A DNA stretch of 22,583 bases from a virus. The stretch lies in UHGV virus genome UHGV-1292143; one strand, written 5' to 3'. The translations under genes were made by a program, and so were the position numbers. The notes beneath the pieces were generated by a model. That model was given only the letters and a program-made list of their open reading frames with translations, made no database searches and was not told where the DNA came from. Shown here in pieces: positions 6,785 to 22,583 of this stretch; positions within the stretch are counted from its first letter, which is position 1, and the number at the start of each line of letters is the position of its first letter.

Positions 6785-6824
6785 GAGCAGATCGACCAAC
6801 CCGATCTGGATCGAGTTAGAAAAA

Positions 6825-6841: not shown

Positions 6842-6910
6842 CGTTTTCTAAGTGCAAAGAATCACCATTTCGAGCTGGTGATTGAAGGTTGATGCAAATT
6901 TGGAGAAAAA

Positions 6911-7711
6911 ATGCAACAAACATTCAATGCGGATATGAATATATCAAACCTTCATCAAAATGTCGATCCTTCAACCACTCTTCCCGTTATTTGTGGTGTT
7001 GAAATTACGACCGACCGCGCTGGCCGTTACAACCTTAATGCTCTACACAGAGCGAGCGGACTCGGTGCCCATAAAGCGCCAGCTCAATGGCTAAGAACGC
7101 TGTCAGCTAAACAGCTCATCGAAGAGCTTGAAAAAGAAACTATGCAGAATTGCATAGTTTCGTTCGAAGGCCGTGGCGGCGGCACTTTTGCCCATGAATT
7201 GCTCGCAGTGGAGTACGCTGGTTGGATTTCTCCCGCGTTTCGGCTGAAGGTAAACCAGACATTTATCGACTATCGAGCTGGAAGATTACAACCTGCTATT
7301 CCGCAGAGTCTCCCTGAAGCTCTCCGTTTGGCTGCCGAACTGGCAGAGCAAAAGCAACGGCTGGAGCAAAAAATGCTTATGGATGCACCTAAAGTCGAAT
7401 TCGCCGAACGCGTTGCTACCGCCAGCGGGGTTCTAATCGGCAACTATGCCAAAGTGCTCGGCCTGGGCCAAAACTATCTCTTCACCTGGTTGCGTGATAA
7501 CGGAATTCTGATCGCAACCGGTGAACGCAGGAACGTCCCCAAACAAGAATACATATCCCGTGGATATTTCACCCTTAAAGAAACCGTGATCGATACAAGC
7601 AATGGAAGCAGGATTTCTTTCACGACTCGTATAACCGGCAAAGGTCAGCAGTGGCTGATGAAGCGATTGCTTGATGCTGGTGTGCTGGTACCTGTCGCGG
7701 CAACGCGCTAA
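6911..7711 (+). CDS. kilA: KilA-like protein: KilA-N domain plus KilA-C domain (266 aa)
   Basis: N-terminal VICGVEITTDRAGRYNLNALHRASGLGAHKAPAQWLRT...FAHELLAVEYAGWISPAFRLKV (KilA-N-like); C-terminal domain about 65% identical to the Ant C-terminus; GGAGA Shine-Dalgarno before the ATG. Confidence 0.7.
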   Translation: MQQTFNADMNISNLHQNVDPSTTLPVICGVEITTDRAGRYNLNALHRASGLGAHKAPAQWLRTLSAKQLIEELEKETMQNCIVSFEGRGGGTFAHELLAVEYAGWISPAFRLKVNQTFIDYRAGRLQPAIPQSLPEALRLAAELAEQKQRLEQKMLMDAPKVEFAERVATASGVLIGNYAKVLGLGQNYLFTWLRDNGILIATGERRNVPKQEYISRGYFTLKETVIDTSNGSRISFTTRITGKGQQWLMKRLLDAGVLVPVAATR

Positions 7712-7740
7712 CAGACGTAGTAAGAACCACCAGCATTGTA

Positions 7741-8241
7741 ATGCTGGCTAAAGTCACTTTCCTGAGCTGTATAACGATGAGCGATTTTACTTTTTCTGGC
7801 TATGAATTGGCCTGCTTTGTAACACACTCCGGTCTATCCCGTAGCGCCGGGCATATCCTGTCGCAATGTGCAAATCTCGCGGCAACAACCAGTGAATACT
7901 TCATTCACAAGCCTCACCGCCTGATCGCGGCAGAAACTGGTTATAGCCAATCAACCGTCGTTCGTGCATTCCGTGAAGCTGTAAACAAAGGAATCCTGTC
8001 TGTAGAGATTGTTATCGGCGATCACCGTGAACGTCGCGCTAACCTGTACCGGTTTACACCATCCTTTTTGGCCTTCGCACAACAAGCCAAAAATGCGCTG
8101 ACTGAAAGCAAATTAAAGATCTCTTCAGCGGCAACCAAGGTTAAAGCTGTTATCGCTAAGACATTGGCTTTATTTAATTTTATATCCACACCCCATGTCA
8201 AAATGATACCCCCTCCCCCTGTCAGGATGACGTGGCAATAA
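7741..8241 (+). CDS. repL: RepL-like lytic replication protein, N-terminal reading frame (166 aa); appears truncated by a frameshift
   Basis: Immediately follows kilA as in P1; frame ends at 8239-8241 just after a CCCCCTCCCCCT tract. Confidence 0.55.
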   Translation: MLAKVTFLSCITMSDFTFSGYELACFVTHSGLSRSAGHILSQCANLAATTSEYFIHKPHRLIAAETGYSQSTVVRAFREAVNKGILSVEIVIGDHRERRANLYRFTPSFLAFAQQAKNALTESKLKISSAATKVKAVIAKTLALFNFISTPHVKMIPPPPVRMTWQ

Positions 8242-8585
8242 AGAATAAGAAGTCACAAGTTAAAAAAACAAAAAGATCAGTTTCCGGCGGTGCCGGAACG
8301 TCCAGACTCAAAAAATTGACTTCATGGATCGCTGAGGCAAAAGCAAAGGCTGACAATCTGCGGTTATCCCAAAAACGCGCTCAAAAACATGAGTTCAAGC
8401 AGAAAGTAGAGGCGGCTGCGCGGAAATATGCTTACCTGAAGAACAAGCGTTCGCCTGATATTGGCGGGATATCAAACTTCGATAACCTACCGCATTGCAT
8501 GACGGTAAACGAAGCTCTTAATGCGGTTTTAGCCAAAAATAAAGATAACGATCAATGGGGTATACCGGCGGGATTCAGAGGGTGA
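8232..8585 (+). CDS. continuation of repL in a different frame (117 aa), or a separate small basic protein
   Basis: Frame is open from 8178 with no ATG. Restoring 1 nt would fuse it to 7741-8241 to give 281 codons, the length I recall for P1 RepL. Confidence 0.4.
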   Translation: MAIKNKKSQVKKTKRSVSGGAGTSRLKKLTSWIAEAKAKADNLRLSQKRAQKHEFKQKVEAAARKYAYLKNKRSPDIGGISNFDNLPHCMTVNEALNAVLAKNKDNDQWGIPAGFRG

Positions 8586-8799
8586 TAGATTGCTCTAATC
8601 TGGAGTCACCTGGCGTTTTCAGTATGGATTTTCTTTGGCGCGGTCTGGCCATTAGGGATCATGTTTGCTGCAACGTTTCTTCTGATGTGGGTATTCACCC
8701 TTCCAGGTGATTTCTATAGAAAAAAAGCCAGACATTGATACAATCGCTGCGGGTGCTTGAGGCTATCTGCTTCAGGCATTACCCGAAAAGCAGATAGAA

Positions 8800-8871
8800 G
8801 AAAGCCCCAGATAACATTACGCGTCCTGCAAGACGCTTAACATTAATCTGAGGCAATATCTATGCTTAGCA
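8800..8871 (-). ncRNA. possible Sok-like antisense RNA
   Basis: Minus-strand promoter-like TTGACC (8901-8906) - 18 bp - TAATCT (8877-8882); the transcript would be complementary to the mok start region at 8862. Inferred from hok/sok architecture only. Confidence 0.3.
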
Positions 8872-9068
8872 TACGTAGATTAGCCTCTTACCGACCAAAA
8901 GGTCAAGGAGAAGCAGGCTATGAAGCAGCAAAAAGCGATGTTAATCGCTCTGATCGTCATCTGTTTAACCGTCATTGTGACGGCACTGGTAACGAGGAAA
9001 GACCTCTGCGAGGTACGAATCCGAACCGGCCAGACGGAGGTCACTGTCTTCACAGCCTACGAATCTGA
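8862..9068 (+). CDS. mok-like leader ORF overlapping hok in another frame
   Basis: 68-aa ORF starting upstream of hok and overlapping it, as in hok/mok/sok loci. Confidence 0.4.
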   Translation: MLSIRRLASYRPKGQGEAGYEAAKSDVNRSDRHLFNRHCDGTGNEERPLRGTNPNRPDGGHCLHSLRI

Positions 9069-9075
9069 AAGGTAA
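8920..9075 (+). CDS. hok: Hok/Gef-family type I toxin (51 aa)
   Basis: MKQQKAMLIALIVICLTVIVTALVTRKDLCEVRIRTGQTEVTVFTAYESER: N-terminal transmembrane helix plus conserved TRKDLCEV and FTAYE motifs; AAGGAG Shine-Dalgarno 9 nt upstream. Confidence 0.85.
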   Translation: MKQQKAMLIALIVICLTVIVTALVTRKDLCEVRIRTGQTEVTVFTAYESER

Positions 9076-9097
9076 GAGACCTGGCGGGGAGAGATCC

Positions 9098-10435
9098 CAT
9101 AAGCGCTAACTTAAGGGTTGAACCATCTGAAGAATGCGACGCCTCGGTGCCTCGTTAAGACGATGCCTCGCGTTCTTCAATTGCGTTTTGTAGGCTGTCA
9201 GGGATACTGTCCCACGAATGGCCACCTGTAAGCTCCAGATGACCATTTTTGTTATTCTCCACAACGAGTTAGTTCTTCTTTTCGGATCCGGCACTTCTGG
9301 GGGGGAAATCCAGCGATGGCTGGATTATGTCGTCAATTAAAAATGCGGCGAGTAGATTAGCAAATATCCACGCTTTCGCGAGTTCAGGTTCCTTTGCACG
9401 CAAAGCATCCAGGTGCAGCAAACTTTTGAGCCGCTTAAAAGCCAGTTCAATTTGCCATCGCAGACGGTAACAATCAGCCACTTGCTCTGCTGAATATTCA
9501 TCTTCCGGTAATGATGTTAGCAATAGCACATGGCCCGCTGCTTCCAGCGTTTCCGCCTGAACTACTCGTCCTTTTCGACGATTCTCGCTGAGCAGTCGGG
9601 TTTTACTGATTAATGCTTTTTCGGGAGGAAGTGATACGGCAATGAGACGTGCCGGAAAGGGAGCTCCGGCTTTTTTATTACCTGAATTGCCTATCATTAC
9701 AGTGGTTTCACCGTTCTTACCGCAATCCAGCCCGCGCAGAAAACCCATCATGTCAAAGCGCATTCCTTCTGCAGTTAACCAGCGCAATCCTCGCCAGTGA
9801 ACCCGGACGATATAATCAGCTTCTCCAAAAGCAAGTGAGCGGATACATTCGGGACGCGAACCGAATCCCCGGTCAGCAATGCGTATCTCGTCTGCCGTTT
9901 GCGCAAATCGGTCCAGCCGTTCAGCGTCTCTGCTGTCGGTTAGCTCAAAATCAGTGAACTGACAGGTATGAGGATCATATCCCATATGTAGTCGCCATTC
10001 AGCGCTGCCGCCCCCGGGCGCACTGATTGCTGTTCCATCGACAAGACGCAATCTCTTTCCGCTTGTACAACCCGTAACTGCGGCGCGTACAGCAAGTGTT
10101 TGTGCGGCAAGTATGCCAAACCAGTCGGCGGCATTCCGCAGCCGCTTCAGGAGAGCCACGTCAGATAATGTTGCAACGTCATGGAGCTGAGCCCATGCAG
10201 TGACTTCACGTAATGACATCCCCCCGGGCCGTAAGCCAGCCCCAGACGTAGCAGAGTTGCAGCATCACGAATTTCGCGGCGGCGGGTTAGAGCCCCGGCA
10301 TTACGTGCCGAAGTATCCAGTTCTTCGGGCTTACCAATATGGGCCAGAATTGCTGACCAGTTATCGTGAGAGTAATTCATCGGCACGTTAAATCATATCA
10401 GGCGTAATACCACAACCCTTAAGTTAGCGCTTATG
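9098..10435 (-). mobile_element. IS186-like insertion sequence (IS4 family), 1338 bp, with a 10-bp target duplication
   Basis: Perfect 23-bp terminal inverted repeats CATAAGCGCTAACTTAAGGGTTG; flanking direct repeat GGAGAGATCC (9088-9097 and 10436-10445) within a GGGG-N-CCCC target, typical for IS186. Confidence 0.85.
9269..10386 (-). pseudogene. IS186 transposase, split by a -1 frameshift in a G-run
   Basis: N-terminal 56 aa (MPMNYSHDNW...GPGG) and the 316-aa DDE body (MSLREV...YRLRWQIELAFKRLK) are in different frames. The junction is a C6 run at 10220-10225 (G6 on the coding strand); restoring one G makes a continuous ~372-codon ORF. Confidence 0.7.
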
Positions 10436-10491
10436 GGAGAGATCCCCGCCACTCTTCGTGTGTCAGGTATCCTCAATGCACCCTTTCCTCT

Positions 10492-10522
10492 CCAAATAAA
10501 AAAGCTCCCGAAGGAGCTTTAA
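10492..10522 (-). terminator. rho-independent terminator ending the minus-strand late operon
   Basis: Minus strand reads AAAGCTCC-TTCG-GGAGCTTT followed by TTTTTATTT, immediately after the stop of the 10540-11049 gene. Confidence 0.6.
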
Positions 10523-10539
10523 AATACAAGGGATGACTC

Positions 10540-11049
10540 TTAATCCCACTCAATCCAGTTGTAGACGATACGAAGTGACGGGCGCACAGCGGCAGTCACA
10601 TCTTCGGTACTAAAGTCGATTGCATCACTGTAGATTTTGCAGTCCAACATTTCAATTGTTGTAGCAGCTTTTGTCACAGCGTTAACCCCGGAAGCTTTGG
10701 ATTCAGGGGTAGCAGCCATCGTGATATCAACATAGTCCTTCGCCGCAATGCGATCCTTAATGAACTGAAGAATATCGCCTTCGATAGTCTCCACGCACTG
10801 GACCTGGATTTCCCCAGAGTTTCGAATTGCTCCGTGCTGGTTGAACTTCACACCATTCGGACCATAGTCCTCCACATCCTCTCGAGTCATTTCAGGGATT
10901 TGCGACGTGCGAACCAGTACGCTGATATCTTCATGGCCTGCAAAAGTGAGCTGGAATTCAGAAGATACCAGTCGTTCGCCTTTGGCCGCGTTGGCAGTAT
11001 AGCGGCCCTTAATAAATTTACGGTTTCCCTTAGTGTTATTGTGCCCCAT
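10540..11049 (-). CDS. phage tail tube-like protein (169 aa)
   Basis: Pattern resembles T4 gp19-family tube proteins (FQLTF... ; C-terminal LRIVYNWIEWD versus gp19 ...LALDYWE); AAGGA Shine-Dalgarno. Assignment from memory. Confidence 0.5.
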   Translation of the reverse strand: MGHNNTKGNRKFIKGRYTANAAKGERLVSSEFQLTFAGHEDISVLVRTSQIPEMTREDVEDYGPNGVKFNQHGAIRNSGEIQVQCVETIEGDILQFIKDRIAAKDYVDITMAATPESKASGVNAVTKAATTIEMLDCKIYSDAIDFSTEDVTAAVRPSLRIVYNWIEWD

Positions 11050-11060
11050 ATAAAATCCTT

Positions 11061-11642
11061 TTACTGGAACGCCCGAACAATATCGGAGCTGTTATATATC
11101 GAAGAACCGGTCAACTGGAGGTTGACGGTGTTTTTCAGGAAATATCCATTACTGTCCCTTGGCGCATCGAGATCAAAACTTAAGTCCTGGATGGCGACAT
11201 CGGTGATGTTGATCCGGCGACCAATGTTTAGCGTCACGCGCTCCGGGATTCGACCACCAACATTGGCCGCTTTTAGTTCCGGGCTAATCATGGCTGTCAA
11301 CGCGGCGATAGCGCCTGAAACTTCAATGAATGGATTGTTCAAAGCAATGAAAGTTACAGGCAGCGTGAACGTCGGCGGAGTCCCCCCTTCCCAAACCATT
11401 AAGCTATTCCAACGGGCAACCGACGTTGTTTCAGTACCTACTTGCACAAAACCACCCAGAGCACCAGAAACAGATCCCATGGACATACCGGTAAACGGCG
11501 CTTCCCAATTCTGGGCCATGTTCATTGCCGCTCCCTGGCTGATATATCCGGTAACCTGGTACTGAGAGTTCGTTAAAGTAACTTTCAGATATGGCGATAC
11601 ACCGTCAGCCTGGCTGTAAACCCCATAAGCTATAGGAGCCAT
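11061..11642 (-). CDS. phage late/virion protein of unknown function (193 aa)
   Basis: ORF in the late operon; start preceded by a GC hairpin rather than a canonical Shine-Dalgarno. Confidence 0.6.
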   Translation of the reverse strand: MAPIAYGVYSQADGVSPYLKVTLTNSQYQVTGYISQGAAMNMAQNWEAPFTGMSMGSVSGALGGFVQVGTETTSVARWNSLMVWEGGTPPTFTLPVTFIALNNPFIEVSGAIAALTAMISPELKAANVGGRIPERVTLNIGRRINITDVAIQDLSFDLDAPRDSNGYFLKNTVNLQLTGSSIYNSSDIVRAFQ

Positions 11643-11652
11643 TCAAGTTAAA

Positions 11653-11670
11653 GGCCGGAGTTCTCCGGCC
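11653..11670 (-). promoter_or_regulatory. GC-rich hairpin between the acidic-protein gene and the 193-aa gene
   Basis: GGCCGGAG / CTCCGGCC stem; on the minus strand it lies between an AGGAGG motif and the ATG at 11642. Confidence 0.4.
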
Positions 11671-11677
11671 TCCTCCT

Positions 11678-12493
11678 TTAGCCAAGGCGCTTACGGCGCA
11701 GTTTCATTGACTTTTTGCGGGCAAGTTTTGCCGCGCCGGTCTGGGCTTTTCGACGCACTTTTTTCAGCGCCGATTTTTGAGCCGCAGTCAGACGTTTTTT
11801 ACGCAGGCGTTTACGGATGAGTTTGATCTCACCGTTACGAACAACCTTCTTAAATGCTTCAGTCAGCATTTCATCAGAAGTGCCAGCAACAACAAACGCC
11901 GCTTCCAGTTCGTCGCGGTCGTCGCTATCTAAACCAGCGATAGAGGCACCAACATCAGCAGCTGCGTCGTCGTCTTCATCGTCAGCCAGTGCTTCGATCA
12001 GGTCATCATCTACACCGCATGCTGCGAGGAAGTTAGCAACATTTGCCCATGCTTCGTTATAGGCATCGTCCTGTTCTTCTGTAACTTCGGAGTCGTCGTC
12101 ATCAGAGATACCAGCGATAGCCTGAACGAAACCATCAAGGGAGTCGAAAGTCAGATCACCGCTATCAGCCCAGGCGAAAACGGCGTCGGCCGCATCACTC
12201 AACGCATTCTGCATAGCACTTCGATTTGCAGCTTCCAGAATCATCTGGTGCGCCTGTTCGACGGTCCATTCTTTACCGTCTTTCCCTTCCAGGATTTGCT
12301 CAGGAGCCGTGGCAGATGGAGCGTTATCGTTAGTCTGTGCCGCCGGTTCCGGATTATTATTAATAACCGGATCTGTTGTCGGTTCGGCGCTTGCTCGGGC
12401 AGACTCCATCAACTGCACAAGATCAGAGTTCAAAGCGAAACGAGACAGTCCATTCCCCAAAAATACCCCGGATTGAAAAAAGTTTTTGCTCAT
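11678..12493 (-). CDS. very acidic protein with a strongly basic C-terminal tail (271 aa); possible scaffold or internal virion protein
   Basis: D/E-rich body (many DDDD runs) and C-terminal KLIRKRLRKKRL...RRKRLG; AAGGA Shine-Dalgarno 7 nt upstream; starts 10 nt after the stop of 12503-14008. Confidence 0.65.
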   Translation of the reverse strand: MSKNFFQSGVFLGNGLSRFALNSDLVQLMESARASAEPTTDPVINNNPEPAAQTNDNAPSATAPEQILEGKDGKEWTVEQAHQMILEAANRSAMQNALSDAADAVFAWADSGDLTFDSLDGFVQAIAGISDDDDSEVTEEQDDAYNEAWANVANFLAACGVDDDLIEALADDEDDDAAADVGASIAGLDSDDRDELEAAFVVAGTSDEMLTEAFKKVVRNGEIKLIRKRLRKKRLTAAQKSALKKVRRKAQTGAAKLARKKSMKLRRKRLG

Positions 12494-12502
12494 TGTATTT
12501 CC

Positions 12503-14008
12503 TTACTTAATAAGCAGCGGTACGCCCTGGATACGACGGGCTACGCCAGTCGGGCAGCAGGCCCAGACTACTTCCCATTTATCGAATTCCGCCTGCGTAA
12601 CTTTCAGCACATACGGTTCTGTACCGTCAGCATCAGGATCACGAGGAGCCACCAGAGCGCCGGAGGCGACAAAGCGATCCAAAAGTTTGGTCATCCCTTT
12701 AGTCAGGCCAGACTCAGTAATGCCGTCCGGGTTATGCTTCATCTGTCGGGCTAACTGGACAAAGAAACGGCTGATTGCGTTCATCAGGGATGGGACGTGC
12801 TGGAAATGCAGATAGTTGTCCTGCGTGCAGCAAGTTAAAGCATCATCGATGATCATCTGGCCCGAAGTACCTACAGATACTTTATTGAGTCGGCCCTTGA
12901 CCATAGCTTCTTCGTCCGGGGTGTCTTCAGGATACAGCGGCTGAAGTGATGCACGAGCAATGACGGCACGTTCTTCACCAGCCGGTGAGTAATGCCAACC
13001 GCCGACATCGGAGTTTTTCTTGACGCCACGAGCTTTCGCCGCATACGCCGCGCCAGACAGACCGAAGACCACGCGGGATTGGGTCCATTTGTCTTTGCAG
13101 GAGAACGGGAAATGATAGACAGCACAGCTTACATAATCGGTACCAAGTAAACCGGTATCTTCAACAGCAGAGATCGCCGCATTGTCATAGCAACCCAGGC
13201 CGAGAACAGCGGTGTGCATGTACGGCGCATTGTTCAGCACTTTCACCGCACGCAGGTAAGCAGCAGTGGAAATGTTCGACTGATCGCCGTTGGTACCGCC
13301 AGTGAACGCCAGCGATTTTTTATTTGTTACTTTCGCCGTCGAAATCAGCTCTTCATTAACAACCGCGCGCAGATATTTAGAACGGGCTTCCAGAGCCGTA
13401 GGCAGATAACACAAGCGGCCCATGTCATCTTTCGCTTCTTCCGCCAAAGACACAGTGTGTGTCTCCAGGGTCGTTACCACACCGAGCGAAGTCGTCTGGG
13501 TCAGTTTTAAGAGGAAGCGTTCATTACCCGCGCTGTCCGCTGTTGCCGTTTCGATGGTTAACTCACGGGTAGGAGAAATACACGGATCACCATCATCAAC
13601 GTAGATAGCAAAGGCTTCGCCGCTATCAAGTTCAATTTCAGAACCGTATGGCAACGCACTGTAAGCCGGTTCGCCTGATTCATCGAACATAATAATCGGG
13701 AACTTCGCATCATCCGGAACAGCACGGACAACATAACCAGACGTTTGCTGAATAGCTTCGTACACATGGCGAATTGGTTCGAACTGTGAGCCGGAGGACG
13801 GCTTCAGCGGTTCGCCGAGAACATCTTCGTAATTGGACTCAGTAACCGCAAGAACAGTAAACGGCTTGCCACGCGCAAATACGCCAATACCAGCCCACAA
13901 GCTGCTATTTAATGCAACACCGGTAGATAACGTCGCATCGGCATTGATCGGGCTAACAGCGACACCGGATGCATTACCTAATGACTGTTGAATTGAATAT
14001 TGAGACAT
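12503..14008 (-). CDS. large late structural protein (501 aa), possibly tail sheath
   Basis: Size and position between the head-precursor gene and tube-like genes; function is inferred from gene order only. Confidence 0.5.
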   Translation of the reverse strand: MSQYSIQQSLGNASGVAVSPINADATLSTGVALNSSLWAGIGVFARGKPFTVLAVTESNYEDVLGEPLKPSSGSQFEPIRHVYEAIQQTSGYVVRAVPDDAKFPIIMFDESGEPAYSALPYGSEIELDSGEAFAIYVDDGDPCISPTRELTIETATADSAGNERFLLKLTQTTSLGVVTTLETHTVSLAEEAKDDMGRLCYLPTALEARSKYLRAVVNEELISTAKVTNKKSLAFTGGTNGDQSNISTAAYLRAVKVLNNAPYMHTAVLGLGCYDNAAISAVEDTGLLGTDYVSCAVYHFPFSCKDKWTQSRVVFGLSGAAYAAKARGVKKNSDVGGWHYSPAGEERAVIARASLQPLYPEDTPDEEAMVKGRLNKVSVGTSGQMIIDDALTCCTQDNYLHFQHVPSLMNAISRFFVQLARQMKHNPDGITESGLTKGMTKLLDRFVASGALVAPRDPDADGTEPYVLKVTQAEFDKWEVVWACCPTGVARRIQGVPLLIK

Positions 14009-14023
14009 AACTTTCCCTGTTAT

Positions 14024-14041
14024 GCGCCCCGCACGGGGCGC
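14024..14041 (-). promoter_or_regulatory. perfect 8-bp GC stem hairpin between the head-precursor and sheath-like genes
   Basis: GCGCCCCG / CGGGGCGC with no downstream U-run; likely an mRNA-stability or attenuation element rather than a full terminator. Confidence 0.4.
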
Positions 14042-14067
14042 TATGTTAAACGGAGAACTTCCCCTGA

Positions 14068-15774
14068 TTACTCAGAGTCACCGGCATCAATCGTGTCGCT
14101 GCTTATAAAGTTAAGCCCGCCTTTTTTGGCCATTGTCAGCGTTACACGAGTGAAGTAATCAGCGCCGTTGCGTGGGTGCATATCGTTGATAGCCGAACCC
14201 CACAGCGTGGTACGGTTGACCAGCACCGGAGTGGTCGGATGCTGGAACGGGATGGCCGGGACAGCATCACCAGTCACGAAGCCTGCTTTACCCGGATTTT
14301 CATCACGGACGTAGCACAGCACATCCATCGAGCTGAACTGAATGTTCTCTGTCGTTAAGTTCTTACAAATACCAGCAGGTACTTCGTACACTTTCACGTT
14401 ACCGAACAGGGTACCGATGTAGTGAACATACGGAGTCTGGATATAGTCTTCGGCTGGCTGGAAGAAATCCTTCGGCAACTGTTTGAAGAAAGATGCTGCA
14501 TCAGCACCAGCAAACATCCCCATCGCACCAGAAGATTTAACGCGCTCAATAATGTCGCGATATACAGTCTGGAATTTGCCACGAATGATGGTTGCCCATA
14601 CATCAAAGGACTGGTTAACCGGCAGAGCGATGTCAAAGGTGTCGGTCGCAAGAGTACGCCAGATCATGATGCGAAGACGCAGCATATCCTGTTCATGAGA
14701 CAGGTATTCCTTCAGGGTGCGGAACTGTAGGGAACCCAGGTCCAGACCAAATTCACGCTGTGCTACATACGCCGCCTGTACCGTGTGCTCAGCCGCGATA
14801 ACGAACTGACTTGGGAACAGGGTGTATTTCTTCATTTCGTGGTTGATCAGCGGGATCAGCTCAGGAGCGGCTTCAATATTGATTTCCGTCTCAATTGCGA
14901 TCTCAGTGCCTTTATCCGGCGCTTTGGAGAACGACAGGGCAATCTGACCAATGTTGTAGTTCAGAGAGCAGGTAACAGTGATTTGCTCACCAGCAGCATT
15001 AGTAAACGAGTGAAGTAGGCTGCCGGAACCGTTATCAACAACAGACTTAATACGGTTAACGTAGATGTTAGTGCGACCTTTTCGGATTGGTACATTCTGG
15101 CCTTCGAAGTCTTCCATCTTGAAGGTTGCGGTTTTGCTGGTGCCATCGGAGCTTGCCACCAGCACATAGCGGCGACGTAACTGGCTGTACACACCGACGG
15201 ATTGCATGTCCAGAACATCACCAGCAGCATAAGAACCAAAAGATGAACCTGCCACGTTAAAGACTTCATAGATGTCGGACTGGTCACGCGTAACCGGAAT
15301 GAAGGTACACGCATCAGCGGTAGCTGCCCCCAACTGAACAGGCAGGATCATCGCGAGGAATAAAGGCAGACGCATAACACCGTCAGAAACGCTCATCATC
15401 TCTGCTGCGACGGATTCCAGCATCGCTTTATTAGTGGCATCCATGCTATTGCGGGTGGACTCAATCAGGCAGTTTTCCAGCGTCTGGTGGCAGGAGGCCA
15501 GAATTTCCGGACGCGGCATAGATTTATGTGCTGCGGCGTAGTCAGCCAGTGCACTTGCCCACGCTGTAGCGATTTGAGCGGTGGCATTATCAGAGATACC
15601 CGCAAAAACCGGGTCTTTACGTGCAGCTTCAAGGATAGATGCGGCACGCGCGGCATCATCTTTAATGAATTGGTTATCAGTACCGAACTGCGCAGTGCTT
15701 GCCCAGCCAAGCACAGCTTTAGAGCGTTTTGCGATATCTGCAATACGATTCTGGTATTCGCGTAAGTTACTCAA
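14068..15774 (-). CDS. major head protein precursor (P1 gp23-like) with helical N-terminal delta-like domain (about 568 aa)
   Basis: N-terminal ~150 aa are helical/Ala-rich, then a large beta-rich body. Probable TTG start at 15772-15774 with AAGGAAGAG Shine-Dalgarno; the track start at 15795 has none. Sits next to parS/parB as I recall for P1 gene 23. Confidence 0.55.
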   Translation of the reverse strand: MSNLREYQNRIADIAKRSKAVLGWASTAQFGTDNQFIKDDAARAASILEAARKDPVFAGISDNATAQIATAWASALADYAAAHKSMPRPEILASCHQTLENCLIESTRNSMDATNKAMLESVAAEMMSVSDGVMRLPLFLAMILPVQLGAATADACTFIPVTRDQSDIYEVFNVAGSSFGSYAAGDVLDMQSVGVYSQLRRRYVLVASSDGTSKTATFKMEDFEGQNVPIRKGRTNIYVNRIKSVVDNGSGSLLHSFTNAAGEQITVTCSLNYNIGQIALSFSKAPDKGTEIAIETEINIEAAPELIPLINHEMKKYTLFPSQFVIAAEHTVQAAYVAQREFGLDLGSLQFRTLKEYLSHEQDMLRLRIMIWRTLATDTFDIALPVNQSFDVWATIIRGKFQTVYRDIIERVKSSGAMGMFAGADAASFFKQLPKDFFQPAEDYIQTPYVHYIGTLFGNVKVYEVPAGICKNLTTENIQFSSMDVLCYVRDENPGKAGFVTGDAVPAIPFQHPTTPVLVNRTTLWGSAINDMHPRNGADYFTRVTLTMAKKGGLNFISSDTIDAGDSE

Positions 15775-15825
15775 TTTACTCTTCCTTAAACACAAGGCAC
15801 TTGTGTGAATCCCTTTTCGGAAGAG

Positions 15826-15854
15826 ATTTTATTGAAAGTCACTTGTTGACTTTC
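15826..15854 (-). promoter_or_regulatory. candidate late promoter: palindrome GAAAGTCA-N5-TGACTTTC with a TAAAAT -10 hexamer 2 bp downstream
   Basis: Seen on the minus strand about 50 nt upstream of the head-gene start. Architecture (palindrome around -22/-25 plus -10, no -35) resembles P1 Lpa-dependent late promoters as I recall them. Confidence 0.35.
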
Positions 15855-15914
15855 TCGCGAAAAGTAATTTTTTAAATTTTTTGTGCGGGGAAGTGGACGG
15901 TGAATGCAGGCGTT

Positions 15915-15990
15915 AAATCGTGGGAATTTCAGTCTGAAATTCTCCTAAAAAACACATGCAAATCATAAGGTTAGTAATGAAATTGGTGCG
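15915..15990. other. parS: candidate parS centromere
   Basis: Immediately downstream of parB: inverted heptamer-like boxes AATTTCAG-T-CTGAAATT (15925-15941), an IHF-like site AATCATAAGGTTA (15961-15973), then AATGAAATTGG; compare P1 parS box A ATTTCAC with an internal IHF site. Confidence 0.45.
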
Positions 15991-16038
15991 GGACATTTTA
16001 GGAAGGGGAGGGGCTAACACCACCTCCCACCAGCGGGA

Positions 16039-17004
16039 TTATTCCCCAGCAGACATTTTCCCAATGATTTTTTTTATTGCTTCGTCAATTTCAGTTTGCA
16101 CTTCAGACGGGAGTCTGGAGAACTCGTAGGCGACAACCCGTTTTTTCGGATCGGACTTCTTTCGAGCATATTGGCGACGGTCAGAGAAGTCTCGCAGCTT
16201 CTCAACCACCACAGATTTAACCGGCGCGGGCTTCAGGCTTTTGCTTTCCGCTTTGAAGATAGCCAGTATCTTCGCTTTATCCTCTTTCGCGCCCTCAGTC
16301 TCTGCAATTCGTTCGCGCACCGTATCAACCAGCTCTTCAATAGGCACGCTTTTAGCGTTGGCATCCTCGGAGATCTGGAGCAGTAACTGGTAATCTGGCA
16401 GGGCGAGATCGCTGGCAACAGGGAAGACAGCAATCATCTCATCCGGCACCGCTGCCGCCTGGAACGCGCGCGTAACTTTAGCCTTTGAAATGTTCTCAGC
16501 GCGGGCGATCTCTTCTTTGGTCATGCTCTTACCATACATAACCTCGAAGCGTTTACCCAGTTCGCGCAGGGTGTGTTCGCGGGCTGTCTGGATATCAATG
16601 GCCAGCTGGCGTGCATCCGCCAGGCTGATCTCATCTTTCGTCACCAGAATCTCAAATTTCGTTTCATTGAAGATACACGCAGCGCGGCGACGTGATCCGT
16701 CCAATACCTCAATGCGCTCCCCAACCATACGACCGATAGCCGGGAAGAACTGTTGCAATTTAATGGTGCGGGAAATATCGCTTACCGACTCAGGGGTGAG
16801 CAGAGACTGATCGCGGCCGTTAACTGCCGGGTCAACGAACGTGCGCGACTCAATCTCACCACTCAGCACAACGGTAAGCAAAAATTTAGCCTGGCGGCCA
16901 GATTTTAGGGTAAAGGTTTTGGTGCCTTCACTGCCTTCAAGCATGCGAGCAAACTCGGAGCTATTCTTGCCCAGCACTCGTCCACGGGAAACTATTTTTT
17001 TCAT
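16039..17004 (-). CDS. parB: ParB partition protein, P1/P7 type (321 aa)
   Basis: Core ...FFPAIGRMVGERIEVLDGSRRRAACIF...KAKVTRAFQAAAVPDEMIAVFP... aligns with P1 ParB by eye at roughly 50% identity; ATGA overlap with the parA stop. Confidence 0.85.
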   Translation of the reverse strand: MKKIVSRGRVLGKNSSEFARMLEGSEGTKTFTLKSGRQAKFLLTVVLSGEIESRTFVDPAVNGRDQSLLTPESVSDISRTIKLQQFFPAIGRMVGERIEVLDGSRRRAACIFNETKFEILVTKDEISLADARQLAIDIQTAREHTLRELGKRFEVMYGKSMTKEEIARAENISKAKVTRAFQAAAVPDEMIAVFPVASDLALPDYQLLLQISEDANAKSVPIEELVDTVRERIAETEGAKEDKAKILAIFKAESKSLKPAPVKSVVVEKLRDFSDRRQYARKKSDPKKRVVAYEFSRLPSEVQTEIDEAIKKIIGKMSAGE

Positions 17005-18212
17005 GCCGCCTCACCCCTAACAAACTCAATTCGATCAAACACAGCCTTAGTGAAACGCTCGGCCTCGGTTCGTGCCTTCTTCAGCGCCTCTGCACTGCCT
17101 GGATACGATTGCGGGTTGGCACTGATTACGGTGTCGAAAGACTCGCCGCATCGCTCAAATCCATCCAGACGAGGCAGAGAAGAGTCCAGAATGTTGCTGG
17201 CGTAAACCTCACGCGCAAGGCTGTGTGATGTCTCGTGATCGCGCTTGCCGGTCATCTTCGACATAAAACCAATGCTGGCGCTTAAACGCGGTTCTACGCC
17301 TTCCTCCTCCAGTTGCTCCAGCATTTCTGGCAGACGGGTGAGATATTTCAGTGTTGAGTGGAAGTCAACCTGGGCTGGTGGGGTAGGGGTAAGCAGCAAA
17401 TCGCTGGCCGCCAGACCGTTGAGCAGGAACGGATCCAGGTGTGGACCGGTATCAATAAAGATAAAGTCATAATCATCCGCAACACGATCAATGATATTGC
17501 GTCGAAGGATTTCGTACTGATTTTGTCCGGGAAGATGCTCTTCAACCAGCTCTTTCCATTGGCTGGCAACAAAGCCATCGTCGATAGAGGCTGGAATCAC
17601 GTCTACGCCAGGAACGATGGTCGGACGAATCACCTCTTTGCGTAGCGTCTCCGCGTCCAAGTCGTTCAGCATCGCCTGCGCGGCGGTTTCCAGGATGGAA
17701 CCAATACTGTGAGTATGGTCGAGGAACATTGTGCTGGATGCCTGAGGGTCAAGGTCAATTACCAGAATGCGCAGATCGTGACGCAGTAAATCCTGATGCA
17801 CACGCAGAGCGTGCGCCAACGTGACTGTGGAAACCGTTTTGGATACGCCACCCTTCAGGTTTACGACAAAAATAACGTAAGGCGATTTGTGAATGTCGCG
17901 ATATTTTGGGATCTTACGGTGGGCATAGATATCAATGACGTTCTGGATGGTCAGCGCGTACTGTTCAACGTTACCGACCTGTTTCTTGTTGAACTGGTAC
18001 CCATCATCTTCCATCTCTTTGATGGCCTGCTCCACAATGCGGCGGCTCAGCTTCGGCAACTTTGCCACAGCGTTACGAGTGAACGTCTGATAATACTCGG
18101 TCTGATTGAACTCTTTGCGCTGATCTTCAATATCCTGACTCATGGCCTTAAGTAATGCGCTTGCACGAAGAGCTATGGTGCCGACACCGCCGTAATCGCG
18201 TTTCATCATCAT
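17001..18212 (-). CDS. parA: ParA partition ATPase, type Ia with N-terminal DNA-binding extension (about 400 aa)
   Basis: Deviant Walker A NLKGGVSKTVST, plus ...RILVIDLDPQ..., ...GFMSK..., LPRLDGFERCGESFDTVISANP; three consecutive ATGs at 18204-18212 behind an AAGGAG Shine-Dalgarno. Confidence 0.9.
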   Translation of the reverse strand: MMMKRDYGGVGTIALRASALLKAMSQDIEDQRKEFNQTEYYQTFTRNAVAKLPKLSRRIVEQAIKEMEDDGYQFNKKQVGNVEQYALTIQNVIDIYAHRKIPKYRDIHKSPYVIFVVNLKGGVSKTVSTVTLAHALRVHQDLLRHDLRILVIDLDPQASSTMFLDHTHSIGSILETAAQAMLNDLDAETLRKEVIRPTIVPGVDVIPASIDDGFVASQWKELVEEHLPGQNQYEILRRNIIDRVADDYDFIFIDTGPHLDPFLLNGLAASDLLLTPTPPAQVDFHSTLKYLTRLPEMLEQLEEEGVEPRLSASIGFMSKMTGKRDHETSHSLAREVYASNILDSSLPRLDGFERCGESFDTVISANPQSYPGSAEALKKARTEAERFTKAVFDRIEFVRGEAA

Positions 18213-18256
18213 CTCCTTATCATTTCGTATGAGTGAATTGTACGTTTGATTCTGCT

Positions 18257-18297
18257 ACGTGCAACTTATTTTGATTCGTGCGTAAATTATTGCACGT
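18257..18297 (-). promoter_or_regulatory. candidate par operator/promoter region (inverted repeat ACGTGCAA ... TTGCACGT)
   Basis: Inverted repeat directly upstream of parA; ParA-type autorepressor operators are imperfect inverted repeats at this position. Confidence 0.4.
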
Positions 18298-18299
18298 AA

Positions 18300-18600
18300 A
18301 GAAATGGCGATGAGGCTATTAGATGTGTGCTGGAGGGATGATGCAGGACCAGAATGTGCGATAGAGGGAAGTCGCATTGAATTATGTGTTGTGGAGGGAT
18401 CGCTGGTATCAAATATGTGCGCTGAAGGGAAAGATAGAAGATTAGATGTGCGCTGGAGGGAAACTTGGATGGTTAGATGTGTGCTGGAGGGAATGTCTGG
18501 GCAAACTGCGTGGCGCAACCCTCCAGCGCACACCAAAAACAGGAAAATGGGCAGGCATTCCCGGCAGCGCACATTTTTCAAATGCAGCTGCCCTCCAGCA
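18300..18600. repeat. incA-like array of ~19-bp RepA iterons (about 9 copies, both orientations)
   Basis: Repeated GATGTGTGCTGGAGGGAAA-like units with the last copies inverted; located downstream of repA. Confidence 0.8.
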
Positions 18601-18605
18601 CACAC

Positions 18606-19466
18606 TTATTCGGGAAGTTTCAGCTTTGGATTGCGAGAATGGACGATTACAAAACTTTCCCGGCCTTTCTTCTCAATTGAACAGTCGAGATAGCCGATTG
18701 TTTTAAGCTGTTCTATCGCTTTCTTAATGATACGGTTTTGCTCGCCAACAGCTGACTGCAAAGCCAGGCGCTCACGGATTCGCGCGAACGATAGCGGCAA
18801 CGGGTTCTGCGGAAGGCTTTCGATGAAAGTGTAAATGGCTTGTGCAGCTTCTTTCTTCGGAAGGGCACGCAAGGCGTGGTGTTGCAACAGAACGCGATAA
18901 TCAAGCTGGAACAGCTCCCAGAGCTTCGAATCGGCCTCCAGCTCTATCAGATCAAGGTCAGCATCAAAACGCCCGACCTTCAGCAGACCAGTCTGATAGC
19001 CGCCTTTAGCATCTTTTCCGCGCTTAAAAGCGATACCCTTGTTACGCAAGCGTCCAAGTGATTCATGAATGGTTAAACGCAGTTTCGCATCCAGACGTTT
19101 TGAGGGGAAACCACAGGCTTTAGCGAACTCCTGAAACGATAACTGGATGGTGTTTGAAGACAAGCCGTATTTGCTGAACGCGTAGATGACACCGATCCAC
19201 GTTTTGAAATCAGTATCCATATCGAGTCGAGGACCGGTGATTTTAATATCATCGTAACCCTCGGCTTTAGCTATCTCCAGCTGGGAAAACGCTTTGGTGG
19301 CATCAATCTCTTTACTTTCTCCTTTGCTCTTTGATGGCTTCGGAACGAATACCCCCAAGCGCATCAACGCTACAGGCTGCACAGTGTTGTTTGAATTAAC
19401 TGTTAGTTCTTTTGCCTTACTTTCAATGTCTGCGTAAAGAATATCGGAGATAAATGATTGATTCAT
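18606..19466 (-). CDS. repA: RepA plasmid-prophage replication initiator (286 aa)
   Basis: Flanked by iteron arrays on both sides; protein matches my recollection of P1 RepA very closely (not verified). Confidence 0.9.
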   Translation of the reverse strand: MNQSFISDILYADIESKAKELTVNSNNTVQPVALMRLGVFVPKPSKSKGESKEIDATKAFSQLEIAKAEGYDDIKITGPRLDMDTDFKTWIGVIYAFSKYGLSSNTIQLSFQEFAKACGFPSKRLDAKLRLTIHESLGRLRNKGIAFKRGKDAKGGYQTGLLKVGRFDADLDLIELEADSKLWELFQLDYRVLLQHHALRALPKKEAAQAIYTFIESLPQNPLPLSFARIRERLALQSAVGEQNRIIKKAIEQLKTIGYLDCSIEKKGRESFVIVHSRNPKLKLPE

Positions 19467-19756
19467 ATTACTTTTTCCGAATTATGTGGATAGTTTTTAT
19501 AAGTGGTGATAACTACCCAGGCTTTCCCGTCAGCACACATCCTATATCCCGCCAGCACACATTAGCAACCCGTCAGCACACATTTTTATCCCTCCAGCAC
19601 ACATCGTTTTCCCTCCAGCACACATCGCGATACACTTCTAAGCCAGACGTGGCGCGGCCTGCAACGATCAGGGATCTATATGGATCTAATTGGGATCTGT
19701 ATGGACCTAATTATTGGATCTACCCAGTGGATAATGTGGATAATGTGGATAAGTGA
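19467..19756. other. oriR-like plasmid origin: five incC iterons, GATC-containing heptamer repeats, tandem DnaA boxes
   Basis: Iterons at 19524-19628 (CCAGCACACAT cores); five GATC motifs at 19667-19725; TGTGGATAA-type DnaA boxes at 19728-19755 and near 19474-19490. Confidence 0.8.
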
Positions 19757-19780
19757 AAAACCGGCCAACATAGCCGGTTG
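19755..19780 (-). terminator. rho-independent terminator after the 19793-20185 gene
   Basis: Minus strand AACCGGC-TATGTTG-GCCGGTT followed by TTTTT. Confidence 0.5.
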
Positions 19781-19792
19781 GAAGGAAGGGTA

Positions 19793-20185
19793 TTATTCTA
19801 CGCTTTCGATAAGAAGACCATGTTCATAACATTTAAGCTCATCGCCTTCGTACAGGAATTGGTATCCAATACCACCATTTTCATGGACATTAGGGAATAA
19901 CTCATAACTCACTGAAGAGCAAATCACACCAATGCAGCGATCAACGCCTTCTCGTTCTTCAGTGCTGAAAAAATCCTCTTCGGTAAGGACATGAGTACAT
20001 TGCTCATCAGCATAGGTCGGAAATACATGCTCGATGCAATCCGGGTGTTTTAAACCAAGCTGATCGGCAAGCTCGAAAGCATGACGGTATTGTTCAGATC
20101 CTGGCTTGCCAACAGTGATGTGCTCAATTTTGTAGATTGAAGTTGCTTTGTTGATAGTTTGCTTTACTGTTACTTTATCAGACAT
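19793..20185 (-). CDS. hypothetical protein (130 aa)
   Basis: ORF ending next to oriR; no recognisable motif. Confidence 0.6.
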   Translation of the reverse strand: MSDKVTVKQTINKATSIYKIEHITVGKPGSEQYRHAFELADQLGLKHPDCIEHVFPTYADEQCTHVLTEEDFFSTEEREGVDRCIGVICSSVSYELFPNVHENGGIGYQFLYEGDELKCYEHGLLIESVE

Positions 20186-20196
20186 AAAAATCCCTT

Positions 20197-20448
20197 TTAG
20201 TTACCTCTGATAGCGCGGTTGTAATCATTAACGTTGCGATTCTTCCTGTTAATCCCCATCAGCATCGTTTCTGTATCGAGGATATACGCTGGCAGATCAT
20301 CAAAATATTCACTGCTAAACTCTGGCATCCTGCACATAAATGCACTTTTGGGGGCAGGGTGGTTAACCTTTGTCGGCGTCGGCGTTAAATTCGCTGATCG
20401 ACTGCCGGAGCAACCGCTGAGTGTCAGCAGGAATGCGCTGGCGAACAT
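20197..20448 (-). CDS. o-spanin (Rz1-like outer-membrane lipoprotein), overlapping the i-spanin gene in another frame
   Basis: Signal peptide with lipobox LTLSG|C (MFASAFLLTLSGC), Pro-rich mature part (TPTPTKVNHPAPK); start taken at ATG 20446-20448; overlaps the 3' 86 bp of the i-spanin gene. Confidence 0.6.
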   Translation of the reverse strand: MFASAFLLTLSGCSGSRSANLTPTPTKVNHPAPKSAFMCRMPEFSSEYFDDLPAYILDTETMLMGINRKNRNVNDYNRAIRGN

Positions 20449-20785
20449 TACCCGCCGCAACCAGTTGTTTCTGAACTTCAGCTTTTCGTTCCATTTGCCT
20501 GTCAGCATATTTGGCTTGTTCTGATTCATTTTTCACTTCCTGGCTGTGAAAATGTTGCTCTGCTTTGTTCATCGTCTCAATGGTCTGGTTAAGATCCATT
20601 ATTGACTTATCACGTTCCTTAACAGCCTGATCAAGACTGCCAATTTTCTCCATGGCTTGCTTTAGCTGATGACGTTCCCATGCAAACCCAGCACCAACAA
20701 GTGCGCAAATCAGAACAAGAACACCAGTAGCAGCAAGTTTCTCCTTCAAAGACAAAGCTGTTTTTAACGTAGAAAAGAATGACAT
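20363..20785 (-). CDS. i-spanin (Rz-like): N-terminal transmembrane anchor plus periplasmic coiled coil (140 aa)
   Basis: MSFFSTLKTALSLKEKLAATGVLVLICALVGAGFAW, then coiled-coil region; ATG at 20783-20785 with a strong AGGAGG Shine-Dalgarno (the track start at 20812 is an upstream TTG). Confidence 0.7.
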   Translation of the reverse strand: MSFFSTLKTALSLKEKLAATGVLVLICALVGAGFAWERHQLKQAMEKIGSLDQAVKERDKSIMDLNQTIETMNKAEQHFHSQEVKNESEQAKYADRQMERKAEVQKQLVAAGNVRQRIPADTQRLLRQSISEFNADADKG

Positions 20786-22147: not shown

Positions 22148-22478
22148 TGAAGTGGTTTACTGAATTTGGCCTCCTGAACAGAGGTGATATGCTCACCTCA
22201 GAACAACACAGGTGCTCCAATGAAAAAAAGAAATTTTAGCGCAGAGTTTAAACGCGAATCCGCTCAACTGGTTGTTGACCAGAAATACACGGTGGCAGAT
22301 GCCGCCAAAGCTATGGATGTTGGCCTTTCCACAATGACAAGATGGGTCAAACAACTGCGTGATGAGCGTCAGGGCAAAACACCAAAAGCCTCTCCGATAA
22401 CACCAGAACAAATCGAAATACGTAAGCTGAGGAAAAAGCTACAACGCATTGAAATGGAGAATGAAATATTAAAAAAGG
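22148..22478 (+). mobile_element. IS911-like (IS3 family) element, left 331 bp only; truncated by IS1
   Basis: Begins TGAAGTGG...; encodes an OrfA almost identical to IS911 OrfA as I recall it; sequence switches to the IS1 terminus at 22479. Confidence 0.75.
22220..22478 (+). CDS. IS3-family (IS911-like) OrfA helix-turn-helix protein, 3'-truncated
   Basis: [86 protein letters not shown], then interrupted. Confidence 0.75.
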
Positions 22479-22583
22479 GGTGATGCTGCCAACTTACTGA
22501 TTTAGTGTATGATGGTGTTTTTGAGGTGCTCCAGTGGCTTCTGTTTCTATCAGCTGTCCCTCCTGTTCAGCTACTGACGGGGT
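22479..22583 (+). mobile_element. IS1 (canonical sequence), left end only; element continues beyond the window
   Basis: GGTGATGCTGCCAACTTACTGATTTAGTGTATGATGGTG... matches the IS1 left terminus exactly as I recall it; insA GTG start at 22534. Confidence 0.9.

What the first reader, a model, noticed from the sequence alone, without database searches (positions are those of the whole stretch)
15915..19756. Mosaic maintenance module: P1-like RepA/iterons/oriR combined with a divergent ParAB and its own parS-like site
RepA and its incC/incA iterons look like P1, but ParA and ParB are only about half identical to my recollection of the P1 proteins, and the parS-like site uses AATTTCAG/CTGAAATT boxes around an IHF-like site. 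This implies the same replicon type with a different partition specificity, relevant for coexistence with other P1/P7-type plasmids.
Basis: partly seen in the sequence, partly recalled or inferred. Interest (0 to 1): 0.4.

Follow-up and report, generated by a model that had tools for sequence, protein, structure and literature searches.

The report
Phage P7 partition cassette on P1 replicon
This stretch is the well-studied plasmid-maintenance region of a P1/P7-family phage-plasmid: the P1/P7 replication module joined to the phage P7 partition genes and centromere, a combination described decades ago and common in E. coli, so it is ordinary.

Summary
Window 15,912-19,752 contains parS, parB, parA, the par operator, incA, repA, incC and oriR in the P1/P7 order. 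RepA is 286/286 identical to both P1 and P7. ParA (403/403) and ParB (321/321) are identical to phage P7. They are only 57.1% and 39.9% identical to P1, and 89.3% and 66.9% identical to pMT1. ParA also matches the crystallised P7 ParA sequence (PDB 3EZ9/3EZF).

The "divergent ParAB" is simply P7 par.

One wrinkle: the 137 bp around parS differ from reference P7 at 40 positions. None of these fall in boxes B1, A1, A2, A3 or B2. Both box B hexamers, which set specificity, are P7-type (GTCCCG and TTCCCA). The changes lie in the IHF spacer, box A4 and the flanks, and an IHF consensus site is retained. This allele is the commoner one (about 128 of 235 PLSDB plasmids with P7-type parS). The same ParB protein occurs with both alleles, and the pattern was already reported for pTZ20_1P (PMC6906374).

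The cassette occurs in 212 of 5,426 complete E. coli genomes. The shared IncY replicon still limits coexistence with P1 or P7.

The parts
15912..15994 (-). parS centromere, P7 type. Read on the minus strand: box B1 GTCCCG (15,989-94), box A1 ATTTCAT (15,977-83), IHF site (15,961-73), box A2 ATTTCAG (15,934-40), box A3 CTGAAAT (15,926-32), box B2 TTCCCA (15,921-26), box A4 ATTTAAC (15,912-18).
   Evidence: Aligned to the annotated P7 and P1 parS, with coordinates. There are no differences from P7 in B1, A1, A2, A3 or B2, 4 in the IHF site and 2 in A4. The A2/A3 inverted repeat is 9 nt, 100% complementary, with 1 nt between the arms. AATCATAAGGTTA has 1 mismatch to WATCAANNNNTTR.
15886..16022 (.). 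A 137-bp patch covering parS and its flanks that differs from reference P7 at 40 positions. It is an allelic variant of the P7-type centromere region, most likely acquired by recombination.
   Evidence: 40 of 137 positions differ here, against 1 of 966 in parB and 4 of 1,212 in parA. About 128 of 235 PLSDB plasmids carry this allele at >=95% identity.
16039..17004 (-). parB, the centromere-binding protein (321 aa).
   Evidence: 321/321 identical to P7 ParB; 39.9% to P1; 66.9% to pMT1. Pfam PF08775 ParB, E = 6.4e-33. Residues 137-316 align to the P1 ParB structures 2NTZ and 1ZX4.
17001..18212 (-). parA, a type Ia partition ATPase and operon autorepressor (403 aa; overlaps parB by 4 nt).
   Evidence: 403/403 identical to P7 ParA; 57.1% to P1; 89.3% to pMT1. 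Full-length match to PDB 3EZ9/3EZF, 886.6 bits. Pfam HTH_54 plus AAA_31.
18213..18321 (-). par promoter and operator region, P7 type, with the inverted repeat TACGTGCAA / TTGCACGTA at 18,256-64 and 18,290-98.
   Evidence: 3 differences from P7 in 109 nt; not alignable with P1, which also has about 165 extra bases here. Inverted repeat. P7 and P1 operators are reported as dissimilar, with spaced inverted-repeat motifs bound by ParA (PMC8465637).
18322..18606 (.). incA copy-number control locus: nine 19-bp RepA iterons, six in one orientation and three in the other.
   Evidence: The iteron scan finds 9 sites with the same spacing and orientation as in P1 and P7. 29 of 285 positions differ from P7 and 41 from P1, whereas P7 and P1 differ from each other at only 15. 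This is a third incA allele.
18606..19466 (-). repA, the iteron-binding replication initiator (286 aa).
   Evidence: 286/286 identical to both P1 and P7. The 9 nucleotide differences from P7 are all synonymous. Pfam Rep3_N.
19523..19752 (-). oriR: incC iterons (19,523-19,626), a GATC-rich region, and three tandem DnaA boxes (19,727-19,752).
   Evidence: Aligned to the annotated P1 and P7 oriR; iterons. A 9-bp tandem duplication gives three copies of TTATCCAC(A), against two in P1 and P7.

Best explanation
This is the plasmid-maintenance region of a P1/P7-family (Punavirus) phage-plasmid. It consists of the IncY RepA-iteron replicon and the phage P7 allele of the type Ia ParABS partition cassette.

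Likely mechanism, inferred from the characterised P1 and P7 systems:
- RepA binds the five incC iterons in oriR and initiates theta replication with host DnaA. The nine incA iterons restrain copy number.
- ParB dimers and host IHF assemble on parS. The ParB helix-turn-helix contacts the box A heptamers. The C-terminal dimer domain contacts the box B hexamers, whose sequence (TTCCCA/GTCCCG here) sets P7 specificity rather than P1 or pMT1 specificity.
- The ParB-parS complex stimulates nucleoid-bound ParA-ATP, and this positions sister plasmids on either side of the division plane.
- ParA also represses the parAB operon, binding the P7-type operator through its N-terminal HTH domain.

The parS region carries a common natural allele. 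It differs from the reference P7 sequence in the IHF spacer, box A4 and the flanks, but not in the specificity-determining boxes. I therefore predict P7 partition specificity.
For: Shown by computation:
- The region aligns with P7 over its whole length at 97.7%.
- ParA, ParB and RepA are 100% identical to P7.
- ParA matches the crystallised P7 ParA sequence, 3EZ9/3EZF.
- Domain content is type Ia: HTH_54 plus AAA_31 in ParA, PF08775 in ParB.
- parS has the BA-IHF-AABA layout of the annotated P7 and P1 sites.
- Box B is TTCCCA/GTCCCG as in P7, not TCGCCA (P1) or TCACCA (pMT1).
- There are no differences from P7 in B1, A1, A2, A3 or B2.
- Across 8 P7-type parS alleles, A1, A3 and B2 are invariant, B1 is invariant apart from one substitution in one sequence, and A2 keeps its 3' part (TCAG). 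The spacer and A4 vary.
- The same ParB protein (WP_000725192.1 = P7 ParB) occurs with both parS alleles, and ParA is invariant.
- An IHF consensus site is retained at 15,961-73.
- 9 incA iterons are present, and 4 incC iterons are found by scan plus the fifth seen in the alignment.
- The operator is P7-type.
- The cassette is in 212 of 5,426 complete E. coli genomes, and plasmids identical to the window over 6-19,466 are typed IncY.

From the literature:
- parS architecture, box B as discriminator, and box B2 as sufficient for incompatibility specificity (PMC10999674).
- The same parAB, 3'-parB and 5'-parA identity pattern described for pTZ20_1P (PMC6906374).
- The P7 operator (PMC8465637).
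Against: Nothing contradicts this identification. The caveats are:
- Box A4 has a C-to-A change in its core (ATTTAAC, against GTTTCAC in P7 and ATTTCAC in P1).
- The IHF spacer is about 50% different from reference P7, so quantitative differences in complex formation cannot be excluded.
- incA carries substitutions inside several iterons.
- The simple sigma-70 scan found no promoter in 15,800-19,800. That scan is strict, and the region differs from the characterised P7 operator at only 3 of 109 positions.
- Function was not tested, and the primary P7 par papers could not be read here.
Confidence: 0.95

Rival explanations
1. The variant parS allele (divergent IHF spacer, altered box A4) defines a third partition specificity or incompatibility type, distinct from reference P7 even though ParAB are identical.
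For: 40 of 137 positions differ from P7 around parS, while parAB differ at 5 of about 2,170, so the cis site was exchanged independently of the genes. Venturini et al. suggested 'potential modification of replicon function' for the same pattern (PMC6906374).
Against: Both box B hexamers and boxes A1-A3 are identical to P7, and box B is the discriminator (PMC10999674). The identical ParB protein occurs with both alleles, and the few ParB substitutions seen elsewhere do not track the allele. A protein that recognises both sites cannot tell them apart, so incompatibility should be shared.
Confidence: 0.03
2. The par locus is a decaying remnant. The box A4 mutation and spacer changes have inactivated the centromere, and the plasmid relies on other stability functions.
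For: Box A4 core changed to ATTTAAC. A degraded P7-type cassette does exist elsewhere: a frameshifted parB on the IncHI plasmid pHum4b.
Against: parA and parB are intact and identical to functional P7 proteins. The minimal A2-A3-B2 site is intact (requirement from PMC10999674). A good IHF site is retained. The allele is the commoner one among P7-type plasmids, about 128 of 235, which would not be expected of a dead centromere.
Confidence: 0.02
3. The cassette has P1 or pMT1 specificity rather than P7 specificity.
For: It belongs to the same family with the same overall layout. ParA is 89.3% identical to pMT1 ParA.
Against: ParB is 39.9% identical to P1 and 66.9% to pMT1, against 100% to P7. 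Box B is TTCCCA, against TCGCCA (P1) and TCACCA (pMT1).
Confidence: 0.005

Closest known systems
Phage P7 parA-parB-parS partition system (GenBank AF503408 and X17529; ParA structures PDB 3EZ9/3EZF)
   Same: ParA 403/403 and ParB 321/321 identical. Operator differs at 3 of 109 nt. parS boxes B1, A1, A2, A3 and B2 are identical, with the same BA-IHF-AABA layout and the same position between gene 23 and incA.
   Different: 40 of 137 nt differ in the parS region (IHF spacer, box A4, flanks). This is an allele shared with about 128 PLSDB plasmids.
Phage P1 parABS (NC_005856)
   Same: Same family (type Ia, the P1par family), the same gene order and parS architecture, and the same flanking replicon with identical RepA.
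   Different: ParA 57.1% and ParB 39.9% identical. Box B is TCGCCA, against TTCCCA/GTCCCG here. The operator is unrelated, and P1 has about 165 extra bases between incA and Ppar.
Yersinia pestis pMT1 parABS (NC_003134)
   Same: Same P1par family and the same parS layout. ParA is 89.3% identical.
   Different: ParB 66.9% identical. Box B is TCACCA. It sits on an IncFIB replicon rather than IncY.
P1-like phage-plasmid pTZ20_1P (Venturini et al. 2019, PMC6906374), and plasmids such as pTetA_020022 (NZ_CP032890)
   Same: pTZ20_1P is reported with parAB 99.8% identical to P7, 81% identity 3' of parB and 91.6% 5' of parA, which is the same pattern as here. NZ_CP032890 is 100% identical to the window over 6-19,466, including parS.
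   Different: None relevant to this module. Cargo and IS content differ elsewhere.
IncY P1/P7 RepA-iteron replicon (oriR, incC, incA)
   Same: RepA identical. Five incC and nine incA iterons in the same positions and orientations. GATC repeats and DnaA boxes present.
   Different: Three tandem DnaA boxes rather than two (a 9-bp duplication). The incA allele differs from P7 at 29 of 285 positions.

Membership tests
P7-type member of the P1par family (type Ia ParABS) | ParA with an N-terminal operator-binding HTH domain and a deviant Walker-A ATPase domain | tested here: met
   Pfam HTH_54 (E = 3.8e-37) and AAA_31 (E = 8.1e-24). Full-length match to P7 ParA, PDB 3EZ9/3EZF.
P7-type member of the P1par family (type Ia ParABS) | ParB with the P1-ParB-family HTH and C-terminal dimer/box B-binding domain | tested here: met
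   Pfam PF08775, E = 6.4e-33. Residues 137-316 align to the P1 ParB structures 2NTZ and 1ZX4.
P7-type member of the P1par family (type Ia ParABS) | parS immediately downstream of parB with box B/box A - IHF site - box A/A/B/A architecture | tested here: met
   All seven elements were located at 15,912-15,994 by alignment to the annotated P7 and P1 sites. IHF consensus with 1 mismatch.
P7-type member of the P1par family (type Ia ParABS) | P7-specific box B discriminator hexamers (not the P1 or pMT1 forms) | tested here: met
   B1 GTCCCG and B2 TTCCCA are identical to P7. P1 has TCGCCA and pMT1 has TCACCA.
P7-type member of the P1par family (type Ia ParABS) | ParB and ParA sequences of the P7 species, including the C-terminal discriminator-recognition region of ParB | tested here: met
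   321/321 and 403/403 identical to AF503408.
P7-type member of the P1par family (type Ia ParABS) | P7-type par operator upstream of parA | tested here: met
   3 differences from P7 in 109 nt. Inverted repeat TACGTGCAA/TTGCACGTA present.
P7-type member of the P1par family (type Ia ParABS) | Stabilises a low-copy plasmid and exerts P7-specific, not P1-specific, partition incompatibility | not testable with these tools
   Needs plasmid stability and incompatibility assays.
P1-type par (P1 specificity) | Box B TCGCCA and a P1-species ParB | tested here: not met
   Box B differs at 2 of 6 positions (B2) and 6 of 6 (B1). ParB is 39.9% identical.
pMT1-type par | Box B TCACCA and a pMT1-species ParB | tested here: not met
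   ParB 66.9% identical; box B differs.
IncY P1/P7 RepA-iteron replicon | RepA initiator of the P1 type | tested here: met
   286/286 identical to P1 and P7.
IncY P1/P7 RepA-iteron replicon | Five incC iterons in oriR and nine incA iterons downstream of repA, with P1 spacing and orientation | tested here: met
   Nine incA sites and four incC sites found with <=5 mismatches. The fifth incC iteron (AATGTGTGCTGACGGGTTG) is seen in the alignment.
IncY P1/P7 RepA-iteron replicon | DnaA boxes and GATC repeats in oriR | tested here: met
   Alignment to the annotated oriR of P1 and P7. There are three tandem DnaA boxes here, against two in P1 and P7.

The most novel reading that the evidence does not exclude
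In this lineage the two cis-acting incompatibility determinants, parS (40 of 137 nt) and incA (29 of 285 nt), were replaced by recombination, while the trans-acting proteins ParA, ParB and RepA stayed identical to P7. If these replacements change site strength, for example IHF-dependent ParB loading or RepA titration, they could alter how the element competes with co-resident P1/P7 relatives without changing nominal specificity.
Probability: 0.05. Interest if true: 0.3.

Novelty: already known. Interest (0 to 1): 0.06.

Why it matters
It matters little. The P1 and P7 par systems are the textbook example of homologous partition cassettes with different species specificity on the same replicon, and this window is a routine natural copy of the P7 version. 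The practical value is correct annotation. The element should be predicted to be partition-compatible with P1-type par but replicon-incompatible (IncY) with both P1 and P7. The sequence variation around parS should not be mistaken for a new specificity.

Tried and rejected
- **Primary literature.** I tried to read the primary P7/P1par papers and the P1 genome paper by DOI or PMC id (Dabrazhynetskaya 2005 and 2009, Radnedge 1998, Dunham 2009, Lobocka 2004). None is held. Statements about them rest on titles seen in reference lists, on secondary descriptions or on my own knowledge, marked as such.
- **Donor of the parS patch.** I looked for a donor among other par types. A sensitive blastn of the parS region against PLSDB found only 235 records. 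All nine records I inspected were P7-type par contexts. I did not check the par context of the other records, and no donor was identified.
- **ParB/parS co-variation.** I tested whether ParB residues co-vary with the parS allele. They do not. The identical ParB occurs with both alleles, and the few substitutions seen elsewhere (S160N, S212A, S219N and others) are not allele-specific.
- **Promoter scan.** The sigma-70 consensus scan found no promoter in 15,800-19,800. I treat this as uninformative, because the known PrepA and Ppar regions are conserved by alignment.
- **P1 or pMT1 specificity.** Considered and rejected on box B sequence and ParB identity.
Full report
**What is there.** A megablast of window 15,000-20,500 against phage records aligns end to end with phage P7 (AF503408) at 97.7% identity. 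It covers only 57% of the query against reference P1, in two pieces. The annotated P7 and P1 regions give the gene order, read on the minus strand: gene 23, parS, parB, parA, par operator, incA, repA, incC/oriR, upfA. The window has the same order. parB is at 16,039-17,004, parA at 17,001-18,212 and repA at 18,606-19,466.

**Proteins.** By global alignment, RepA is 286/286 identical to both P1 and P7. ParA is 403/403 and ParB 321/321 identical to P7. Against Yersinia pestis pMT1, ParA is 89.3% and ParB 66.9% identical. ParA matches the PDB chains 3EZ9/3EZF over its full length at 886.6 bits; the P1 ParA entries 3EZ2/3EZ6/3EZ7 score about 520 bits. Pfam finds HTH_54 plus AAA_31 in ParA, which is the type Ia architecture, the P1-family ParB domain PF08775 in ParB, and Rep3_N in RepA.

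**Centromere.** parS lies at 15,912-15,994 and has the same layout as the annotated P1 and P7 sites: B1-A1, IHF site, A2-A3-B2-A4. These two boxes are adjacent rather than flanking the IHF site, so that part of the description is slightly off. The 21-nt A2-A3-B2 core occurs once, against zero expected by chance. The box B hexamers are GTCCCG and TTCCCA, identical to P7. P1 has TCGCCA in both positions and pMT1 has TCACCA. According to PMC10999674, boxes A2-A3 and B2 form the minimal site, box B is the discriminator between related par systems, and box B2 determines partition incompatibility. On that basis the site is P7-type.

**The wrinkle: a variant parS allele.** The window's differences from P7 are strongly clustered:
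- parS patch (15,886-16,022): 40 of 137 positions
- incA: 29 of 285
- parB: 1 of 966
- parA: 4 of 1,212
- par operator: 3 of 109
- repA: 9 of 861, all synonymous

Within parS there are no differences in B1, A1, A2, A3 or B2, 4 in the IHF site and 2 in A4, which is ATTTAAC here. The IHF site remains a good consensus match: AATCATAAGGTTA has 1 mismatch to WATCAANNNNTTR.

I aligned eight P7-type parS alleles drawn from across the identity range. Boxes A1, A3 and B2 are invariant. B1 is invariant apart from one substitution in one sequence, and A2 keeps its 3' part (TCAG). The spacer and A4 vary. The same ParB protein (P7 ParB = WP_000725192.1) is found with both the reference allele and the window allele. 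ParA is invariant, and the few ParB substitutions in other plasmids do not follow the parS allele.

The window allele is the commoner one. Of 235 PLSDB plasmids with a P7-type parS, 128 are >=95% identical to it and about 106 fall in the 60-90% band that contains the reference allele. The contrast between 29% divergence in the patch and 0.2% in the adjacent genes points to allelic exchange by recombination rather than mutation in place; this is my inference.

Venturini et al. [quoted passage not shown]

**Replicon.** An iteron scan finds the nine incA iterons (18,322-18,606; six in one orientation, three in the other) and the incC iterons (19,523-19,626) at the P1/P7 positions (the fifth incC iteron is seen). 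oriR keeps the GATC repeats. A 9-bp tandem duplication gives three tandem DnaA boxes (19,727-19,752) where P1 and P7 have two. This is a minority allele but not a unique one: 23 PLSDB plasmids are >=99% identical over this stretch. The incA allele differs from both P1 and P7, which are nearly identical to each other there.

**Operator.** The 109 nt upstream of parA are P7-type, with 3 differences, and cannot be aligned with P1. They contain the inverted repeat TACGTGCAA/TTGCACGTA with 25 nt between the arms. This fits the spaced inverted-repeat motifs proposed as ParA-dimer binding sites in the P7 promoter (PMC8465637).

**How it works (inferred from the characterised P1 and P7 systems).** RepA and DnaA initiate replication at oriR, and the incA iterons limit copy number. 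ParB and IHF assemble on parS, with the HTH contacting box A and the C-terminal domain contacting box B. The complex stimulates nucleoid-bound ParA-ATP, which positions the plasmids. ParA autoregulates the operon at the P7-type operator. None of this was tested here. It follows from sequence identity with proteins and sites that have been characterised.

**Distribution and context.** The par cassette (15,880-18,353) occurs at >=95% identity in 212 of 5,426 complete E. coli genomes, mostly on plasmids. Many plasmids are 100% identical to the window over 6-19,466, and one 372-kb plasmid matches 99.9% of the whole window. The representatives I inspected are typed IncY. The window as a whole is a P1/P7-family phage-plasmid segment, 75% covered by P7 at 97.1% identity, and homology ends at 22,147 where an IS3-family element begins.

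**Verdict.** The 'divergent ParAB with its own parS' is the classical P7 par cassette, whose distinct specificity from P1 has been studied since the late 1980s. From my own knowledge, the key papers are Ludtke et al. 1989, Hayes and Austin 1993, and Radnedge et al. 1996 and 1998. The Radnedge 1998, Dabrazhynetskaya 2005/2009 and Dunham 2009 titles were seen in reference lists. The coexistence argument is limited because the shared IncY replicon should still make the element incompatible with P1 and P7. Novelty: already known. Interest: low.

Noticed in passing
window 19,727-19,752 (insertion placed at 19,727-19,735 by the alignment): A 9-bp tandem duplication gives three tandem DnaA boxes (TTATCCACA TTATCCACA TTATCCAC, minus strand) at the edge of oriR, where P1 and P7 have two. 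It is a minority allele: 23 PLSDB plasmids are >=99% identical over 19,660-19,800, and most others align at about 90-94%, consistent with lacking the 9 bp (132 of 141 nt aligned in the examples listed).
   Followed up: partly
window 18,322-18,606 (incA): This incA allele differs from P7 at 29 and from P1 at 41 of 285 positions, while P1 and P7 differ from each other at only 15. Substitutions fall inside several iterons as well as in the spacers, yet RepA is identical. The origin of the allele and any effect on copy number are unknown.
   Followed up: partly
window 15,500-15,800 (5' part of gene 23): Fine-scale mosaicism. This stretch is 100% identical to P1 but only 94-98% identical to P7, immediately next to the P7-type par cassette.
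   Followed up: no
L009 (NZ_OR724977.1, pHum4b, IncHI1B/IncHI2A) 1,480-3,167: A P7-type par remnant on a 291-kb IncHI plasmid. ParA fragments are 99-100% identical. parB is broken into several frames and unannotated. A parS with an intact A2-A3-B2 core is present, followed by gene 23 promoter-like sequence. A centromere without a working ParB could interfere with, or depend on, co-resident P7-type elements.
   Followed up: partly
window 22,148-22,583: Homology with P1 and P7 ends at 22,147. An IS3-family transposase orfA (99 aa, resembling IS911 OrfA from memory) starts at 22,184, so an IS insertion or junction lies here.
   Followed up: no
E. coli genome collection, e.g. NZ_LR134222.1 4,724,565-4,727,038: 10 of the 215 places where the cassette occurs are on records labelled as chromosomes, including a 100% identical copy in NCTC11129. 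This could reflect an integrated phage-plasmid or a mis-assembled or mis-labelled replicon.
   Followed up: no
window 17,001-18,212: RefSeq/PGAP annotates this ParA as 401 aa, starting at the third ATG of MMMKRDY. The P7 GenBank record and the PDB construct use 403 aa. This is an annotation difference only.
   Followed up: yes
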